This document shows, piece by piece, positions 1-54,534 of a stretch of DNA of 54,534 nucleotides. Position 1 is the first letter of the stretch. Every line of letters starts with the position of its first letter. The stretch is from Candidatus Gastranaerophilales bacterium (GTDB lineage: Bacteria > Cyanobacteriota > Vampirovibrionia > Gastranaerophilales > Gastranaerophilaceae). Under the pieces are notes generated by a model, which had not been told where the DNA came from, did no database searches, and saw only the letters and a program-made list of their open reading frames with translations. The stretch is taken from the NCBI GenBank assembly GCA_947624935.1, contig CANQML010000001.1, positions 1-54,534 on the forward strand, in the 5' to 3' direction. Both the position numbers and the translations under genes were made by a program.

Positions 1-77
1 ACCTATTTATGTTTATTGACAACGGGGCGGCAACGTTCCGTGAACAAACAAATTCTCTCGATAGGGTTGTACAAGTT
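1..77. repeat. 77-bp terminal overlap identical to 54458..54534 (circular-contig signature or terminal redundancy)
   Basis: The first and last 77 nt match exactly when compared directly. Confidence 0.95.
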
Positions 78-24508: not shown

Positions 24509-24611
24509 AATTAAACCTCTTTATAAATTATTTATTTAAGCCGTAACGGCTCATTTTTATTGTTGTGATAAAATATACTACCTCGCCCATAAAAGGGCGC
24601 AGAATTGAAAT

Positions 24612-24869: not shown

Positions 24870-24957
24870 AAAATACCTCTTTATAAATTATTTTTCCGCT
24901 ATGCGGTGGGGCGGGTAGTGTTTTAGGAGTTTCCCGCTATCGCTCCGAAAAGTGCAG

Positions 24958-25101
24958 TTATGCTCTCCTTAAATATAAATTTTTAACTTTTTCAAACTCT
25001 TCTTGACTTATCGCAGAAAGGGGCAGACCCCCGAACCACAAACGGCAGAAAGACAGAAAGCCACATAAAGTTTTAATATTTGTATGAATATAGAATTGCA
25101 T
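24958..25101 (-). CDS. small hypothetical protein (47 aa)
   Basis: Internal ATG (MQFYIH). The RBS is weak. Confidence 0.3.
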   Translation of the reverse strand: MQFYIHTNIKTLCGFLSFCRLWFGGLPLSAISQEEFEKVKNLYLRRA

Positions 25102-25303: not shown

Positions 25304-25404
25304 TTTGTTAAATCTCCTTTGCCTGTCATCATCAGTACGGGGCGGCAAACCCCCGCAGACGGGCAGAAAAAGCCCGTTTCGACTGTTTAATTAAATCACC
25401 CCCC

Positions 25405-25527: not shown

Positions 25528-25644
25528 AATAATATACTCCTCTTTATGCGTTTAGTTTTGCCGTGTGCGGTCTTTGGACGCTCTCGGCGGACGCATTAAC
25601 GGCGGGCAAGCCGCCGCCCATCTGCTATAATTTCACCCCCTTTA

Positions 25645-25992: not shown

Positions 25993-26087
25993 AATAAAAC
26001 CCTCTTTATAATTTATTTGCGGGCGGGCTTGCAACCGCCACCGCCGCATTAACCCCTTGCGGGGCTGCTCTGCGTTACAAATTTATT

Positions 26088-26219
26088 TTAATTATTTGTA
26101 CAAATACAAGCGATTAAATACACCGCGCGCGGGTTTTTTTCGTGCATTTCCCACGCGAGCGCGTCCGCCTCTTCAAATGTTTTCCCGCCCGCGAGCATTC
26201 CCGCGCTTTGCTCTACCAT
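26088..26219 (-). CDS. small GC-rich ORF, start ambiguous (43 aa from the ATG; the frame is open for 77 codons without a canonical start)
   Basis: MVEQSAGMLAGGKTFEEADALAWEMHEKNPRAVYLIACICTNN*. The upstream in-frame part reads ...YEFYCPSGNTFTFCAQCDKSAAAYARQ. Confidence 0.35.
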   Translation of the reverse strand: MVEQSAGMLAGGKTFEEADALAWEMHEKNPRAVYLIACICTNN

Positions 26220-26315
26220 TTGCCGCGCATACGCCGCCGCGCTTTTATCGCATTGGGCACAAAATGTAAATGTATTGCCACTCGGGCAATAAAATTCATA
26301 ATTGCCAAACGATAA

Positions 26316-26370
26316 CCGCCCCCCGAGTCAAGGTTAATTTGATTATAACACCGCCCGCCCCCCGTGTCAA
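26316..26370 (-). repeat. two copies of TTGAC(A/T)CGGGGGGCGG, 39 bp apart; the distal copy supplies the -35 of the leftward promoter
   Basis: Plus-strand ccgccccccgAgtcaa (26316..26331) and ccgccccccgTgtcaa (26355..26370). Confidence 0.7.
26342..26370 (-). promoter_or_regulatory. consensus promoter TTGACA-17-TATAAT for the leftward operon
   Basis: The reverse complement reads TTGACA cggggggcgggcggtgt TATAAT. Confidence 0.75.
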
Positions 26371-26419
26371 CCCTTTTATTATACTTTTTTTAATATTCTT
26401 TTAGTTTTTTTAATATGTA

Positions 26420-26437
26420 CACGCGCCCGCGCGCGTG
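26420..26437. other. GC hairpin CACGCGC-CCGC-GCGCGTG; the motif CGCGCCCGC occurs three times (26422, 26452, 26649)
   Basis: Read directly. GC islands sit inside an AT-rich intergenic region. Confidence 0.6.
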
Positions 26438-26506
26438 ATATAAATATCCTGCGCGCCCGCCCTGCTAACCCTTGCAGGCGTGGAAGGAGCCGCCCCGCGC
26501 CCCCGC

Positions 26507-26640
26507 TTTTTTCTTTTTATTTATTTTTCTTTTTTGTAAATTATTCAAAATTACTTTTTGTAATTTTGTACACTAAATAATTATGTAAATTATTCAATGT
26601 ATTGATATGATTATTTAATGATTTTTGTAAAAAAATAAAG
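26507..26640. other. extremely AT-rich tract (about 13% G+C by hand count) with TTTTGTA half-sites and a 13-bp direct repeat; DNA-unwinding-element candidate
   Basis: TTTTGTA at 26532, 26556, 26564 and 26623. GTAAATTATTCAA at 26536 and 26585. Confidence 0.45.
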
Positions 26641-26720
26641 TAACATATCGCGCCCGCACTCGCTCATTCTGTTTTTTCGTGCTTTTTATCCCGTCTAACC
26701 GATTTATAAAACGTTCATAT

Positions 26721-26749
26721 TTGAAATTTTGTTGATTTTTGGCTAAAAT
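26721..26749 (+). promoter_or_regulatory. candidate promoter TTGAAA-17-TAAAAT inside the gene-free hub
   Basis: TTGAAA at 26721..26726 and TAAAAT at 26744..26749. Confidence 0.45.
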
Positions 26750-26761
26750 ATGCCAAAATCA

Positions 26762-26785
26762 GGGCGGGAGGGGTGCCCGTGGGGG
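26762..26785 (+). other. canonical G-quadruplex motif GGG-C-GGG-A-GGGG-TGCCCGT-GGGGG; a second G block GGGGTGGGGG lies at 26806..26815
   Basis: Read directly. Four G3+ tracts with loops of 1, 1 and 7 nt. Confidence 0.6.
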
Positions 26786-26821
26786 CAAAGGTTGCGGATT
26801 TGAAAGGGGTGGGGGTAACCT

Positions 26822-26890
26822 CATACACTTACAATTTAGAAATTTGAATTTAGCTATTCACATACACTTACAAAATTAAAATTTCAATTT
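26822..26890. repeat. two imperfect 30-bp direct repeats (25/30 identical), period 39 bp
   Basis: CATACACTTACAATTTAGAAATTTGAATTT versus CATACACTTACAAAATTAAAATTTCAATTT. Confidence 0.7.
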
Positions 26891-26891
26891 C

Positions 26892-27203
26892 AAGTCTTTA
26901 TCAAGACTTTCATTTTAGTTTATGAGATTATTCGGTAAATCCGAATTATCTCTTTACTCACTTAAACTGACATAAAAGCTATAAAAGATTATCAGTATAT
27001 TGATAATGATAGGTAGTAATCATTTCAAAAACGCCGTTAGAGCTTATAATTAGCGTTCTAACGGGTTTTAGAATAAACTATGGGTAAATACACGGAAAGG
27101 CTAAATAAGGGTTTAGAAAGCAAATAAAAGCCTTTCCGAGAGAGTATAATTTTATTGGTGTTTTAGTGGTAAAATATTTCCTATAAAGATAGAAATAGGA
27201 AAA
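26892..27203 (+). other. run of six stem-loops, including a terminator-like one at 27034..27069
   Basis: Stems at 26892..26909 (7 bp), 26924..26952 (12 bp, 1 mismatch), 26988..27007 (7 bp), 27034..27069 (8 bp then GTTTTA), 27093..27138 (10 bp) and 27177..27202 (8 bp). Confidence 0.55.
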
Positions 27204-27221
27204 GGGTATTTTTAGAGAGCA

Positions 27222-27405
27222 TTTTGTAGTCTATGGTGTTTACAAAATAGGGGTAAAGTGGCATTTTTGTAGCCTGTACTGTTTACAAAAATTTTGTAAC
27301 CTACTGTGTTTACAAAAAGTATGATTTTGTAGCCGTGTGCGTTTACAAAATTTTTTCTGTGTAATAAAATTTATTTATAATTTTGTAGTTATTTTGTTTA
27401 CAAAA
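27222..27405. repeat. five 25-26-bp palindromic iterons TTTTGTA(G/A)-N8-9-GTTTACAAAA
   Basis: Copies at 27222..27247, 27265..27290, 27292..27317, 27325..27350 and 27381..27405. Confidence 0.85.
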
Positions 27406-27425
27406 TTGATTTAGTATGATATAAT
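27397..27425 (+). promoter_or_regulatory. promoter TTTACA-17-TATAAT whose -35 lies inside iteron 5
   Basis: TTTACA at 27397..27402 and TATAAT at 27420..27425. Confidence 0.55.
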
Positions 27426-27521
27426 GAATATACAGAGCAAGGACAGCCCTATTGCAAGGGGTTTCCGAGCGTTCCTGCGGATTACTTGCTTTGTACATTT
27501 TTGCTTGGGGAACGCAAGTTA

Positions 27522-28067
27522 ATGAAAAAGGTAACGAAATACATAAATGATACGCATAAGCCTGTACCGCTGTATGAGGGTGCGGACGGAGAGAAGTTGT
27601 TTGACGTGCCGCCGAACGGCGGTATGGCGAAGATATTTACGGAAGCGCAGATTAGAAGTCAAACGGCGTATGCAAGTAGAGTACAATACGATTGGAAGTT
27701 TATAAAGTGTATGGAAAATGAGCAAGAGATAATAATTCTGTTAAAAGACGACTTAAAGACTTTTTACGCTTTAACCGTAATGAAACATTTTCTGTTAAAA
27801 GATAGGAATATTTTAGTTAAAAATATAGTTAAGGACGGTAAAGAGCAAACAGTTAAGTTTACCGCTATTGATTTACAAGAGGCTTTGGGGTATAAGACGA
27901 GGCAAGCGGCAAGCAAGCATATTATGAAATTAAAGAGCTTGAATATAGTAAAGGGCATAAAGACAAAAGATTTCGGTTATGTTTTTGCTATTAACCCGAA
28001 TTACTATATGAACGGCACTTCTGTACCGAAAGAGATAAGTGAGTTATTCAACGAGGACAATAAATGA
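27522..28067 (+). CDS. winged-helix DNA-binding protein, putative iteron-binding replication initiator or regulator (RepL-like)
   Basis: wHTH-like LQEALGYKTRQAASKHIMKLKSLNIVKGI. It is the first gene after the iterons. ATG 27522 is preferred to the TTG at 27486. Confidence 0.4.
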   Translation: MKKVTKYINDTHKPVPLYEGADGEKLFDVPPNGGMAKIFTEAQIRSQTAYASRVQYDWKFIKCMENEQEIIILLKDDLKTFYALTVMKHFLLKDRNILVKNIVKDGKEQTVKFTAIDLQEALGYKTRQAASKHIMKLKSLNIVKGIKTKDFGYVFAINPNYYMNGTSVPKEISELFNEDNK

Positions 28068-30668: not shown

Positions 30669-30974
30669 ATGCAAAATATTAAACTTGACGGCTCAACAGG
30701 TTGTTTTATTCACCGCGATAAAGACGGAATACATTTAGAAATGGTTGTAAATGATAATTTGGGGTGTAAAAGCGGTGATTATAAAACTGTAAAGCCCGAA
30801 GATTGTCCTACTCAATACGATTATGTTATAGACATAAGCGAAACTACTTATATAACGCTTGTAAAATGTATGCTGTCATTAGCAACACGCGAAGAATTTA
30901 ACAAAATATTACTTAACCCCGTTGACGGGGCTTGTTGGGAAGTAACCCATAGAAAAACAAACAAAAAGCAATGA
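30669..30974 (+). CDS. hypothetical protein
   Basis: ATGA overlap with terL. Confidence 0.5.
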   Translation: MQNIKLDGSTGCFIHRDKDGIHLEMVVNDNLGCKSGDYKTVKPEDCPTQYDYVIDISETTYITLVKCMLSLATREEFNKILLNPVDGACWEVTHRKTNKKQ

Positions 30975-53313: not shown

Positions 53314-54534
53314 ATGGCAAGTTTTACGCCGAGTAAGAAAACGGCAAGTGATTTTAATAATAACACGAAATATGTTGATTACGACCCTGCATTAGGAATT
53401 ACAGGGGATAGTCCGCAAGCAGAAACGATAAACAATCTTGTTGAAAGCGCATTGTATACACAAGAGAGGGCTGATAGCGCGGCTCAAAGTGCGGCAAATG
53501 CTGAAAGTTCTGCCGATAACGCTAATTCGGCGGCAGAGGCGGCGCAAAAGACGGCGGACGGCAAGTATACATTACCGGCAGGCGGTATACCGGCAAGCGA
53601 TTTAAAAGGCGATATCCCGACCTCGAAGATAACAGGGCTTGCCACAGTAGCAACAAGCGGCGATTATAATGACCTGTTGCATAAACCTGCCGCATACTCG
53701 TTGCCAATTGCAACGTCGACCGTTCTCGGCGGCGTTAAGAGCTCCACAACAGGTACAGACGGCACAGATTATAACGTCCAGGTAAATGCAGACGGCACAA
53801 TGAAAGTCAATGTGCCCAGCCCTGATTTAAGCGGTTATGCGAGGCTTGACGGCACGCAAGAATTTACGGGTAAAAACACCTTTACTGCAAGCACGACGTT
53901 TACGGAAACGGACAATACCGGGAACTACACCAACATAGACGGTGCCTCGATTGGAGTGGTTTCTGATTATGGTGACATTGCAACATATATTACTTCTGAC
54001 GGTATAGAGATAAAAGCGGACAATGGTGAGACTAATACTGAATATCAAGCGACAGGTATAACTTATAATCACAACGATAATACCAATACTTTGTCTTTCC
54101 CCCAAAAAAGTGGTACGCTTTTTCTTAAAGAGGAATTTAAGGCGGCAGAAAAGGCTTTTATTAAATTTGAAGTCGGTGATTATTTTATTACAGGAAATAC
54201 AACTTCACCCGCCGCACGTTTTGGCGGTACTTGGGAAGAACTTCCGCAAGGCACCTTCCTTCGCGCAACAGGCACGAGCGGCGCGATTTCATCGGGTACT
54301 GCGACGGACGGCGGAAGCAATTCGCATAATCATGTTGTTGGTGCGCAAGACGATACAAGTGCATACGCAATTATGGATACGGGCATAGCAGTCATTGACG
54401 GTACTAATCAAAGAGGTGTTTTAACCCGTACATCCCAAGTTCACGGTTATTCGAGCGACCTATTTATGTTTATTGACAACGGGGCGGCAACGTTCCGTGA
54501 ACAAACAAATTCTCTCGATAGGGTTGTACAAGTT
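53314..54534 (+). CDS. tail fibre protein (5' part; continues to nt 149 through the circular junction)
   Basis: An Ala/Ser-rich coiled N-terminal region, then ...VGDYFITGNTTSPAARFGGTWEELPQGTFLRATG...GGSNSHNH, a fibre-tip/collar-like motif. No stop before the window end. Confidence 0.8.
   Translation, partial: MASFTPSKKTASDFNNNTKYVDYDPALGITGDSPQAETINNLVESALYTQERADSAAQSAANAESSADNANSAAEAAQKTADGKYTLPAGGIPASDLKGDIPTSKITGLATVATSGDYNDLLHKPAAYSLPIATSTVLGGVKSSTTGTDGTDYNVQVNADGTMKVNVPSPDLSGYARLDGTQEFTGKNTFTASTTFTETDNTGNYTNIDGASIGVVSDYGDIATYITSDGIEIKADNGETNTEYQATGITYNHNDNTNTLSFPQKSGTLFLKEEFKAAEKAFIKFEVGDYFITGNTTSPAARFGGTWEELPQGTFLRATGTSGAISSGTATDGGSNSHNHVVGAQDDTSAYAIMDTGIAVIDGTNQRGVLTRTSQVHGYSSDLFMFIDNGAATFREQTNSLDRVVQV
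54458..54534. repeat. 77-bp terminal overlap identical to 1..77
   Basis: Exact match. Confidence 0.95.

What the first reader, a model, noticed from the sequence alone, without database searches (positions are those of the whole stretch)
26750..27070. Candidate ~310-nt structured ncRNA beginning with a G-quadruplex-forming 5' end
TTGAAA-17-TAAAAT (26721..26749) would start an RNA at about 26756. That RNA begins with GGGCGGGAGGGGTGCCCGTGGGGG and then GGGGTGGGGG. It contains the paired 30-nt repeats and three hairpins. It ends at a terminator-like hairpin (CCGTTAGA/TCTAACGG followed by GUUUUA, 27034..27069). G-runs of this kind are conspicuous in a genome that is mostly 25-40% G+C.
Basis: inference. 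Interest (0 to 1): 0.6.

Follow-up and report, generated by a model that had tools for sequence, protein, structure and literature searches.

The report
Phage control hub, not proven RNA
The G-rich stretch, repeats and hairpins are real and sit in the only gene-free hub of a complete 54-kb rabbit-gut phage. They look more like the right half of a replication-origin and control cassette than a stand-alone folded RNA, and no available data can show whether an RNA is made.

Summary
These are the TTGAAA-17-TAAAAT promoter-like site, the only canonical G-quadruplex motif in the phage, two direct repeats with a 39-nt period, three small hairpins and a larger hairpin.

Evidence for a discrete ~310-nt structured RNA is weak:
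- Promoter-like sites are about as frequent here as chance predicts.
- The "terminator" has only four U and reads better on the opposite strand.
- All hairpins are near-perfect palindromes that fold equally well on both strands.
- Rfam finds nothing, even at E ≤ 10.
- In related phages seen in public rabbit-gut and other gut runs, two of the three small hairpins are replaced by 163 unrelated bases. In another relative, one repeat unit is deleted.

The stretch is the right half of a ~720-bp ORF-free cassette (26421-27138) that relatives share as a unit. This cassette or its hub holds the genome's most AT-rich segment, a local GC-skew switch at about 26700-26720 and the highest palindrome density. 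It also holds G-rich patches whose strand flips at the same point. A distantly RepL-like winged-helix gene with five binding sites lies next to it.

My best reading (about 0.4) is a cis-acting origin and control module, possibly activated by transcription. A discrete ncRNA remains possible (about 0.2). No RNA-seq data exist for this phage. The scan has not noted this element on other DNA.

The parts
26421..26510 (.). GC-rich island (C-rich on the + strand) at the left edge of the shared cassette. It begins with the hairpin CACGCGC-CCGC-GCGCGTG (26420-26437).
   Evidence: Relatives' similarity starts at 26421. G4Hunter gives -1.56 at 26490-26514.
26515..26650 (.). AT-rich segment that looks like a DNA-unwinding element. 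It carries TTTTGTAAA-type half-sites of the neighbouring winged-helix protein's palindromes.
   Evidence: 26515-26594 is the most AT-rich 80-nt window of the whole phage, at 89%. TTTACAAAA occurs exactly at 26532 and 26623 and with one mismatch at 26556, 26564 and 26581, all on the minus strand.
26721..26749 (+). Sigma-70-like promoter candidate, TTGAAA-17-TAAAAT, with no extended -10.
   Evidence: One search gives 10 of 12 matches, with site density in the region near chance. The hexamers show no listed change in relatives; 26729 and 26741 in the spacer do change. The local minimum of cumulative GC skew is at about 26700-26720.
26756..26821 (+). G-rich patch (32 G, 9 C). It holds the canonical G4 motif 26762-26785 and GGGGTGGGGG at 26806-26815. 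A second promoter-like site, TTGAAA-18-TACACT (26800-26829), overlaps it.
   Evidence: The listed substitutions in relatives (26775, 26780, 26797) all fall outside the G tracts, which would happen by chance about 26% of the time.
26822..26890 (.). Two direct repeats with a 39-nt period (30-nt core, exact 13-nt head CATACACTTACAA) and phased A/T tracts.
   Evidence: family D5. One related contig skips exactly 26822-26860, which is one unit (table 5).
26892..26909 (.). Hairpin or palindrome H1 (7-bp stem, 4-nt loop).
   Evidence: It is replaced, together with H2, by 163 other bases in two relatives.
26924..26952 (.). Hairpin or palindrome H2 (5+6 bp, 5-nt loop).
   Evidence: Stability is the same on both strands (-13.5 and -13.1 kcal/mol).
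26988..27007 (.). Hairpin or palindrome H3 (7-bp AT stem).
27034..27064 (.). Hairpin H4 (8-bp perfect stem, extendable). It is flanked by AAAAACG on the left and GUUUUAG on the right, so it looks like a two-way terminator with the better U-run on the minus strand.
   Evidence: The stem is unchanged in three relatives except 27034 C>T, which comes with 27033 G>C.
27093..27138 (.). Hairpin H5 (10-bp stem, 26-nt loop). It marks the right edge of the shared cassette.
   Evidence: Relatives in runs X11 and X13 diverge exactly after 27138 (table 7).
27143..27172 (-). Minus-strand promoter-like site, TTACCA-18-TATACT. It could start a ~105-nt leftward RNA made of H5, H4 and a U-run.
   Evidence: One search gives 9 of 12 matches. 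This is inference only.
27222..27425 (+). Five palindromic sites (TTTTGTAG-N10-TTTACAAAA) that cover the strong rightward promoter at 27397-27425.
   Evidence: family D1. One search gives 11 of 12 with TG..
27522..28067 (+). Winged-helix DNA-binding protein, distantly RepL-like.
   Evidence: The protein has no Pfam hit of its own. Of 30 distant relatives, 22 match HTH_11 and 8 match RepL PF05732, with a best E-value of 4.5e-5.
26342..26370 (-). Consensus leftward promoter, TTGACA-17-TATAAT, with a G-rich spacer. It heads the operon that carries the ribozymes.
   Evidence: One search gives 12 of 12 with TG. One search gives G4Hunter -1.76 at 26349-26373.

Best explanation
The stretch is the right half of a ~720-bp ORF-free, cis-acting cassette (26421-27138). 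The cassette lies in the only divergent hub of a complete circular 54,457-bp phage genome. It is most likely the replication-origin and control region that works with the adjacent RepL-like winged-helix gene.

From left to right the cassette reads:
- a C-rich island;
- the genome's most AT-rich segment, with half-sites of the winged-helix protein's palindromes;
- a short C-rich piece;
- a promoter-like site;
- the G-rich patch;
- two iteron-like 39-nt repeats with phased A/T tracts;
- a row of unrelated palindromes, the last two of which look like two-way terminators.

**Shown:** the layout, the composition extremes, the skew switch, the palindrome enrichment, sharing as a unit among relatives, and the variable repeat number.

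**Inferred:** the elements act mainly as DNA, or as transiently single-stranded DNA, for protein binding, bending, unwinding and insulation. If the promoter-like site fires, the G-rich transcript would help in cis rather than as a free folded RNA. It could do so by opening the origin or by forming a stable R-loop on the C-rich template.
For: - **Genome and hub:** the contig has a 77-nt terminal overlap, so it is a circular assembly. The hub is the only place where the minus-strand and plus-strand gene blocks diverge.
- **Shared as a unit:** related contigs in two other studies align over 26421-26890 and 26953-27138 at about 85-94% and then run on unlike exactly at 26421 and 27138. Both edges are GC-rich hairpins.
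- **Composition:** 26515-26594 is the most AT-rich 80-nt window of the genome (89%). The local minimum of cumulative GC skew is at about 26700-26720.
- **G-rich patches:** four of the five strongest G4Hunter windows of the phage lie in the hub. G is on the minus strand left of about 26700 and on the plus strand to the right.
- **Palindromes:** the density of perfect palindromes is 8-9 per kb at 26-28 kb, against about 3 per kb elsewhere.
- **Repeats:** the number of repeat units varies between relatives, as it does for iterons.
- **Binding sites:** 7 of the 14 exact TTTACAAAA copies in the window lie in the hub, including two in the AT-rich segment.
- **Neighbouring gene:** it is a winged-helix protein with weak but repeated RepL similarity among its distant relatives.
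- **Strand symmetry:** hairpins are strand-symmetric, as expected for DNA-level palindromes.
Against: - No replication data exist.
- The GC-skew switch and the strand flip of the G patches also coincide with the switch of transcription direction, so they do not single out an origin.
- No DnaA boxes lie in the hub.
- The five palindromes are all different sequences. That fits structure-based roles (RNA or single-stranded DNA hairpins, terminators) better than repeated binding of one protein.
- An earlier scan note (e1-4357298, not checked here) places a second replication module, an organizer plus a DnaC-like loader, near 35-36.7 kb. That module could carry the real origin.
- The RepL link is distant: the protein itself has no Pfam hit.
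- Relatives are only about 10% diverged, so conservation says little about constraint.
Confidence: 0.4

Rival explanations
1. One reading: a discrete, stable, trans-acting structured ncRNA. It would be transcribed rightwards from about 26756 and end at H2, H4 or H5, giving 200-385 nt with a G-quadruplex-prone 5' end.
For: - A promoter-like site lies at the right distance, and its hexamers show no listed change in relatives.
- Five unrelated perfect hairpins suggest that structure matters more than sequence.
- The stems of H4 and H5 carry 1 of the 12 listed differences in 27013-27138, where about 3.8 are expected. My binomial estimate is p ≈ 0.07. That one difference keeps a G·U pair on the plus strand only.
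- The skew switch lies at the promoter.
- The same phage carries other structured RNAs, a hammerhead and twister ribozymes.
Against: - There is no strand preference in folding.
- No Rfam match was found.
- The U-tail on the plus strand is weak.
- H1 and H2 are replaced by 163 nt in two relatives, and one repeat unit is dispensable in another.
- The listed change 26775 G>A breaks the only predicted hairpin inside the G patch.
- No covariation can be measured.
Confidence: 0.2
2. A sense leader with a countertranscript, as in plasmid copy-number control. A rightward leader from 26756 would be attenuated at H4/H5. The attenuation would be driven by a ~105-nt leftward antisense RNA that starts near 27137, runs through H5 and H4, and ends at the CGUUUUUG run. 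This would tune read-through into the Rep-like gene.
For: - A minus-strand promoter-like site at 27172..27143 would place the start at the foot of H5.
- H5 and H4 are each followed by a T-rich run on the minus strand.
- The H4 and H5 stems are conserved in three relatives while the linker between them varies.
- Antisense attenuation is the usual control in Firmicute plasmids such as pT181 and pIP501 (review PMC5703833).
Against: - The Rep-like gene has its own strong, operator-covered promoter downstream of the supposed attenuator.
- The minus-strand promoter matches only 9 of 12 positions, and its region is not shared with the X11 and X13 relatives.
- No expression data exist.
Confidence: 0.12
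3. A packaging recognition site (cos or pac) or the genome termini. The GC-rich patch would be the cut site, and the repeats and palindromes would be terminase or bending-protein sites.
For: - From my own knowledge, cut sites in low-GC phages are often short GC-rich islands flanked by repeats.
- The hub is the largest non-coding region and lies 3.5-4 kb upstream of the large terminase gene at 30971.
- The assembly is circular, so the true ends are unknown.
Against: - The hub is further from the terminase genes than usual, with at least six ORFs in between.
- Similar G-rich patches of opposite polarity lie 300-450 bp to the left, which a single cut site does not explain.
- No read-end data are available, because the runs are kept only as contigs.
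Confidence: 0.08
4. No joint function. The stretch would be a loose collection of separate operators, terminators and decaying repeats between two operons, and the G patch would be only an extreme of the general strand bias.
For: - Each single signal is weak or of chance quality.
- Relatives tolerate a replacement and a deletion.
- The G excess has the same sign as in the flanking genes.
Against: - The cassette is kept and exchanged as a unit with sharp hairpin borders.
- The extremes of AT content, G-richness and palindrome density all fall within one kilobase of a genome that is otherwise tightly packed with genes.
Confidence: 0.15

Closest known systems
Non-coding origins of Firmicute phages and iteron plasmids (AT-rich segment plus direct and inverted repeats beside the initiator gene)
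   Same: It is an ORF-free region with an AT-rich segment, direct repeats of variable number, many inverted repeats and an adjacent DNA-binding initiator-like gene with its own repeated sites.
   Different: The initiator is only distantly RepL-like. No DnaA boxes are present. G-rich patches of opposite polarity flank the AT-rich core, which is not a described feature of these origins. Function is untested.
Mitochondrial LSP-CSB II primer site (PMC3488243, PMC4176368) and, from my own knowledge, the ColE1 RNA II primer
   Same: A promoter is followed closely by a run of G tracts on the non-template strand. In those systems this gives a hybrid G-quadruplex or persistent R-loop that ends transcription and primes DNA synthesis.
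   Different: This is a resemblance of layout only. No R-loop, primer or transcript is shown here. The sequence after the 66-nt patch is G-poor (3 G in 26822-26890). There is no homology.
ssoA-type single-strand origins of rolling-circle plasmids, including the RepL/pSN2 family (PMC5703833, PMC4598088)
   Same: It is a non-coding region of a few hundred bases rich in hairpins, near a RepL-like gene. A TAGCGT hexamer sits in the H4 hairpin.
   Different: The RSB motif is absent within 3 mismatches. TAGCGT occurs at chance frequency, 26 copies against 32 expected. The spacing does not fit. It is not a member.
Type III toxin-antitoxin antitoxin RNAs (ToxI-like) and phage pseudo-ToxI mimics
   Same: A promoter-like site is followed by tandem ~39-nt repeats and then a hairpin. 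The repeat number differs between relatives.
   Different: There are only two units. No ToxN-type toxin gene follows; the next gene is a winged-helix protein 450 nt away. No similar repeat array exists in the binned host genome.
Rfam families, including the self-cleaving ribozymes found nearby
   Same: The same phage carries Hammerhead_II and Twister-P5 within 1.5 kb.
   Different: Those ribozymes lie on the other strand, inside the leftward operon. Nothing in 26700-27150 matches any of the 4227 families at E ≤ 10 beyond noise.

Membership tests
Canonical G-quadruplex motif | Four runs of at least three G separated by loops of 1-7 nt | tested here: met
   26762-26785 has loops of 1, 1 and 7 nt. 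It is the only such motif in the phage. Actual folding is not testable here.
Sigma-70 promoter | -35 and -10 hexamers 16-18 nt apart, more frequent than chance | tested here: inconclusive
   10 of 12 matches at 26721-26749. The region has 9 sites against 6.0 ± 2.6 in shuffles.
Intrinsic terminator | GC-containing stem-loop followed directly by a run of at least 5 U within 8 nt | tested here: not met
   On the plus strand H4 is followed by GUUUUAGA, with 4 U, and the scan does not list it. The minus strand has CGUUUUUG.
Any Rfam family | Covariance-model score at or near the gathering threshold | tested here: not met
   The best match is 17 bits against thresholds of 39-80, with E from 0.36 to 9.8.
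Structured ncRNA (generic) | Strand-specific structure with compensatory changes in relatives | tested here: inconclusive
   z is -4.75 on the plus strand and -5.0 on the minus strand. Only one informative pair change is listed (27033/27034). 66 difference rows were hidden, and no relative's sequence could be fetched.
ssoA single-strand origin | RSB motif (TTATGCCGAGAAAATTT) about 50 nt upstream of CS-6 (TAGCGT) in a long hairpin | tested here: not met
   There is no RSB in the hub at up to 3 mismatches. CS-6 is present at 27051-27056 but at chance frequency.
Iteron-type origin | Repeated initiator-binding sites next to an AT-rich unwinding segment and the initiator gene | tested here: inconclusive
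   Five palindromic sites at 27222-27410, half-sites in the 89% AT segment and a neighbouring RepL-like gene are all present. Binding and replication were not tested.
DnaA-dependent origin | Cluster of DnaA boxes (TTATCCACA) | tested here: not met
   No box with up to 1 mismatch lies between 24013 and 44278.
Type III TA antitoxin array | Tandem RNA repeats directly upstream of a ToxN-, AbiQ- or CptN-type endoribonuclease gene | tested here: not met
   Two repeats are present. The downstream gene is a winged-helix protein with no ToxN hit.
RNA anti-CRISPR (CRISPR-repeat mimic) | Similarity to a host CRISPR repeat | tested here: not met
   The host array on contig C63 has a 36-nt repeat in 33 copies. 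The phage shows no match beyond 9-mers and no spacer hit.
R-loop or hybrid-G4 primer site (CSB II-like) | Transcription-dependent stable RNA-DNA hybrid at G tracts on the non-template strand that yields a primer | not testable with these tools
   Only the layout, a promoter-like site followed by a G patch, is seen.
cos/pac site | Virion DNA ends or terminase cutting at the site | not testable with these tools
   The public runs are held only as contigs. The assembly is circular.

The most novel reading that the evidence does not exclude
A bacteriophage origin is licensed or primed by its own promoter-proximal G-quadruplex or R-loop-forming transcript. RNA started at about 26756 would stay hybridised, or form a hybrid G4, over the 66-nt G patch and hand a 3' end or an opened duplex to the replication machinery. 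This would be a bacterial-virus counterpart of the mitochondrial LSP-CSB II primer. Mirror-image G patches would serve the leftward side.
Probability: 0.1. Interest if true: 0.75.

Novelty: new member of a known kind. Interest (0 to 1): 0.3.

Why it matters
If the cassette is the origin and control region, it gives a handle on replication in a phage lineage with no relatives in INPHARED, IMG/VR, PLSDB or the GTDB genomes searched. It would also be a small replicon part (cassette plus Rep-like gene) that can be tested directly.

The G-rich patches of opposite polarity around the AT-rich core are unusual for a low-GC phage. From my own knowledge, RNA G-quadruplexes are generally depleted in bacteria. 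If the patches proved to act through R-loops or G4 structures, they would give a simple bacterial model for G4-linked replication priming.

If the stretch is only a set of operators and terminators, it is ordinary.

Tried and rejected
**Searches for homologues (all empty)**
- blastn of the hub against INPHARED phages and PLSDB plasmids.
- 200 genomes of the host's family by DNA; only short AT-rich chance hits.
- 400 genomes of the order with the Rep-like profile.
- Rep-like protein or profile in IMG/VR, JGI metagenomes and GTDB contigs (one search failed for lack of a conserved block).
- Exact motif scans.
- An 18-mer scan gave 18 IMG/VR hits. Fifteen came from one unrelated phage family and the flanks of all hits were unrelated, so they are chance matches.
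- The large terminase has only three distant (26-28%) unannotated matches.

**Tools and data that were unavailable**
- None of the hub ORFs looked up, nor the neighbouring gene read from two alternative start sites, is on record as an exact protein sequence.
- No RNA holder was listed for this DNA.

**Hypotheses tested and rejected**
- ssoA.
- DnaA boxes.
- A CRISPR-repeat mimic, or host spacers against the phage.
- Similarity of the G patch to the host's abundant G-rich repeat family.
- Complementarity between the G patch and the C-rich islands. Only one 9-mer matched, and it is changed in a relative.
- A Gly/Arg-rich 46-aa ORF over the G patch (26739-26879). It has no ribosome-binding site, and its TTG start is lost in a relative through 26741 G>A.
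- Recoded ORFs. There is no suppressor tRNA, and no long ORF appears with TAG=Q or TGA=W.

The earlier-notes look-ups found no look-alike on other DNA.

Full report
**Setting**

The window is contig C1 of a 2.2-Mb, 181-contig binned genome. The first and last 77 bases are identical, so the contig is a circular assembly of 54,457 bp. It encodes a large terminase, DNA methylases and an FtsK-like ATPase, so it is a phage.

Holders of the DNA are rabbit-gut metagenomes. Genes run leftwards from about 26300 down to 17882. They run rightwards from 27522 through the end and on to about 17800. The finding therefore lies in the single divergent, ORF-free hub at 26300-27480.

The hub has no ORF of 60 aa or more under table 11. 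None appears with TAG=Q or TGA=W except unsupported fragments, and the phage's two tRNAs (Gln-UUG, Thr-UGU) are not suppressors.

**Observation**

- **Promoter-like site:** TTGAAA-17-TAAAAT at 26721-26749 matches 10 of 12 positions. Such sites number 9 in this 1.7 kb against 6.0 ± 2.6 in shuffles.
- **G4 motif:** 26762-26785 is the only canonical G4 motif of the phage. Whole-genome shuffles expect 0.035 and hub shuffles 0.003.
- **What is actually odd:** 44% of shuffles of the 66-nt patch itself also produce a G4 motif. The unusual thing is a patch with 32 G and 9 C.
- **Repeats:** the two repeats (26822-26851 and 26861-26890, 39-nt period) share an exact 13-nt head.
- **Hairpins:** four perfect-stem hairpins lie at 26892-26909, 26924-26952, 26988-27007 and 27034-27064. 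A fifth, just outside the finding, lies at 27093-27138.

**Is it an RNA gene?**

Several results weigh against a precisely folded RNA.
- Rfam finds tRNAs, a Hammerhead_II (25317-25384, minus strand) and a Twister-P5 (26023-26074, minus strand) in the window. It finds nothing in the hub, even when 26700-27150 is searched alone at E ≤ 10.
- The 320-nt stretch folds better than shuffles on both strands alike (z -4.75 and -5.0).
- Each hairpin has almost the same energy on either strand, because the stems are perfect palindromes with hardly any G·U pairs.
- The closing hairpin is followed by GUUUUAG on the plus strand and by CGUUUUUG on the minus strand. The terminator scan does not list it.

**What relatives show**

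No homologue exists in INPHARED, PLSDB, IMG/VR, JGI metagenomes or GTDB genomes. The only comparative data come from laying contigs of four public runs on 26200-27600.

- Relatives from two other studies align over 26421-26890 and 26953-27138 at roughly 85-94% identity.
- They become unlike exactly at 26421 and 27138.
- They replace 26891-26952 (H1 and H2) with 163 other bases.
- A low-depth contig lacks exactly one 39-nt repeat unit.
- Listed substitutions in the G patch (26775, 26780, 26797) spare all G tracts, but three random changes would do so 26% of the time.
- 26775 G>A breaks the only predicted hairpin inside the patch.
- In 27013-27138, 1 of the 12 listed differences falls in the H4 and H5 stems, where about 3.8 are expected (my estimate, p ≈ 0.07).
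- That one change (27034 C>T, together with 27033 G>C) keeps pairing on the plus strand only.
- Sixty-six difference rows were not displayed, so these counts are incomplete.
- No RNA run is listed.

The existence and ends of a transcript therefore cannot be decided.

**What the surroundings say**

The shared unit 26421-27138 is bordered by GC-rich hairpins at 26420-26437 and 27093-27138. Within it or around it:
- 26515-26594 is the most AT-rich 80-nt window of the whole genome, at 89%.
- That segment carries five copies (two exact, three with one mismatch) of the half-site TTTACAAAA, all on the minus strand.
- The same half-site forms the five palindromes at 27222-27410, which cover the strong rightward promoter at 27397-27425.
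- Cumulative GC skew has its local minimum at about 26700-26720.
- Four of the five strongest G4Hunter windows of the phage lie in the hub. G is on the minus strand at 26349-26373 and 26490-26514, and on the plus strand at 26761-26785 and 26791-26815.
- Perfect palindromes reach 8-9 per kb here against about 3 per kb elsewhere.

The next gene (27522-28067) has no Pfam hit of its own. A profile search found 46 distant relatives. Of 30 scanned, 22 match winged-helix models and 8 match the plasmid initiator family RepL, with a best E-value of 4.5e-5. PDB matches are winged-helix regulators.

**Reading**

The layout best fits a cis-acting origin and control cassette. It has a strongly AT-rich core flanked by GC-rich pieces, iteron-like repeats of variable number, bent A/T-tract DNA, many palindromes and an adjacent autoregulated initiator-like gene. 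I give this about 0.4.

A promoter-like site followed by G tracts on the non-template strand resembles sites where transcription yields a persistent R-loop or hybrid G-quadruplex that primes replication. Examples are mitochondrial CSB II (PMC3488243, PMC4176368) and, from my own knowledge, ColE1 RNA II. This is a resemblance of layout, not a tested mechanism, and the sequence after the patch is G-poor.

Rival readings are:
- a leader with a countertranscript for attenuation, using a possible ~105-nt leftward RNA from about 27137 through H5 and H4 (0.12);
- a packaging site (0.08);
- an unrelated collection of operators and terminators (0.15).

**Rejected**
- ssoA: the RSB motif is absent and CS-6 occurs at chance frequency (motifs from PMC4598088).
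- DnaA boxes.
- A ToxI-like antitoxin: no toxin gene follows.
- A CRISPR-repeat mimic.
- Kinship with the host's own G-rich repeat family.
- A Gly/Arg-rich small ORF.

**Verdict**

The RNA interpretation can be neither confirmed nor excluded, and the indirect evidence leans against a precisely folded 310-nt RNA. The stretch is most likely part of an origin and control cassette of a phage lineage that is otherwise uncatalogued. Interest is modest unless the G patch proves to act through an R-loop or G4.

Noticed in passing
window 25317-25384 (-), 26023-26074 (-), 25567-25626 (-): The leftward operon of small ORFs carries a Hammerhead_II ribozyme (53 bits) and a Twister-P5 ribozyme (51 bits). 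It also has a second, sub-threshold Twister-P5-like element (26.7 bits, E 0.01). Each sits in a short GC-rich gap between genes.
   Followed up: partly
window 24540-24600, 24895-24950, 25010-25070: Further short GC-rich intergenic islands lie in the same operon with no Rfam match. Given the neighbouring ribozymes, they may be divergent or unknown self-cleaving RNAs.
   Followed up: no
host contigs C2-C179 of G000 (e.g. C2:32172, C27:18094, C129:358 and 606): The binned host genome holds about 65-75 copies of a GC-rich hairpin repeat family that contains canonical G4 motifs, such as CCCCCTCGCCCC-TTGC-GGGAGAGGGCTGGGGTGAGGGG. Copies are often followed by further GC hairpins and preceded by 8-9-nt tandem repeats. 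Many lie within 200 nt of contig ends, so the family looks like a REP- or MITE-like repeat that breaks the assembly. It has no similarity to the phage hub.
   Followed up: partly
window 1-77 and 54458-54534: The two contig ends share an exact 77-nt overlap. The contig is therefore a circular assembly of 54,457 bp, probably a complete phage genome.
   Followed up: yes
window 26314-26375 (-): The consensus leftward promoter (TTGACA-17-TATAAT with TG) has a spacer made of G runs. The motif TTGAC(A/T)CGGGGGGCGG occurs twice, 39 nt apart, which is the same period as the repeats in the finding.
   Followed up: no
window 27028-27172 (-): A small leftward RNA of about 105 nt is possible.
   Followed up: partly
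host contig C63:5408-7560: A CRISPR array of 33 copies of a 36-nt repeat (GTTATAGTTGACAGTCTGATTAATCTCTGATATAAT) with 30-nt spacers. No spacer matches the phage contig.
   Followed up: yes
relatives of window 27522-28067 (proteins P0002, P0008, P0014): In some relatives the winged-helix C-terminal part is fused to an N-terminal T5orf172/MUG113 (GIY-YIG-like) domain in place of this phage's N-terminus. This matches the break in DNA similarity at 27138.
   Followed up: partly
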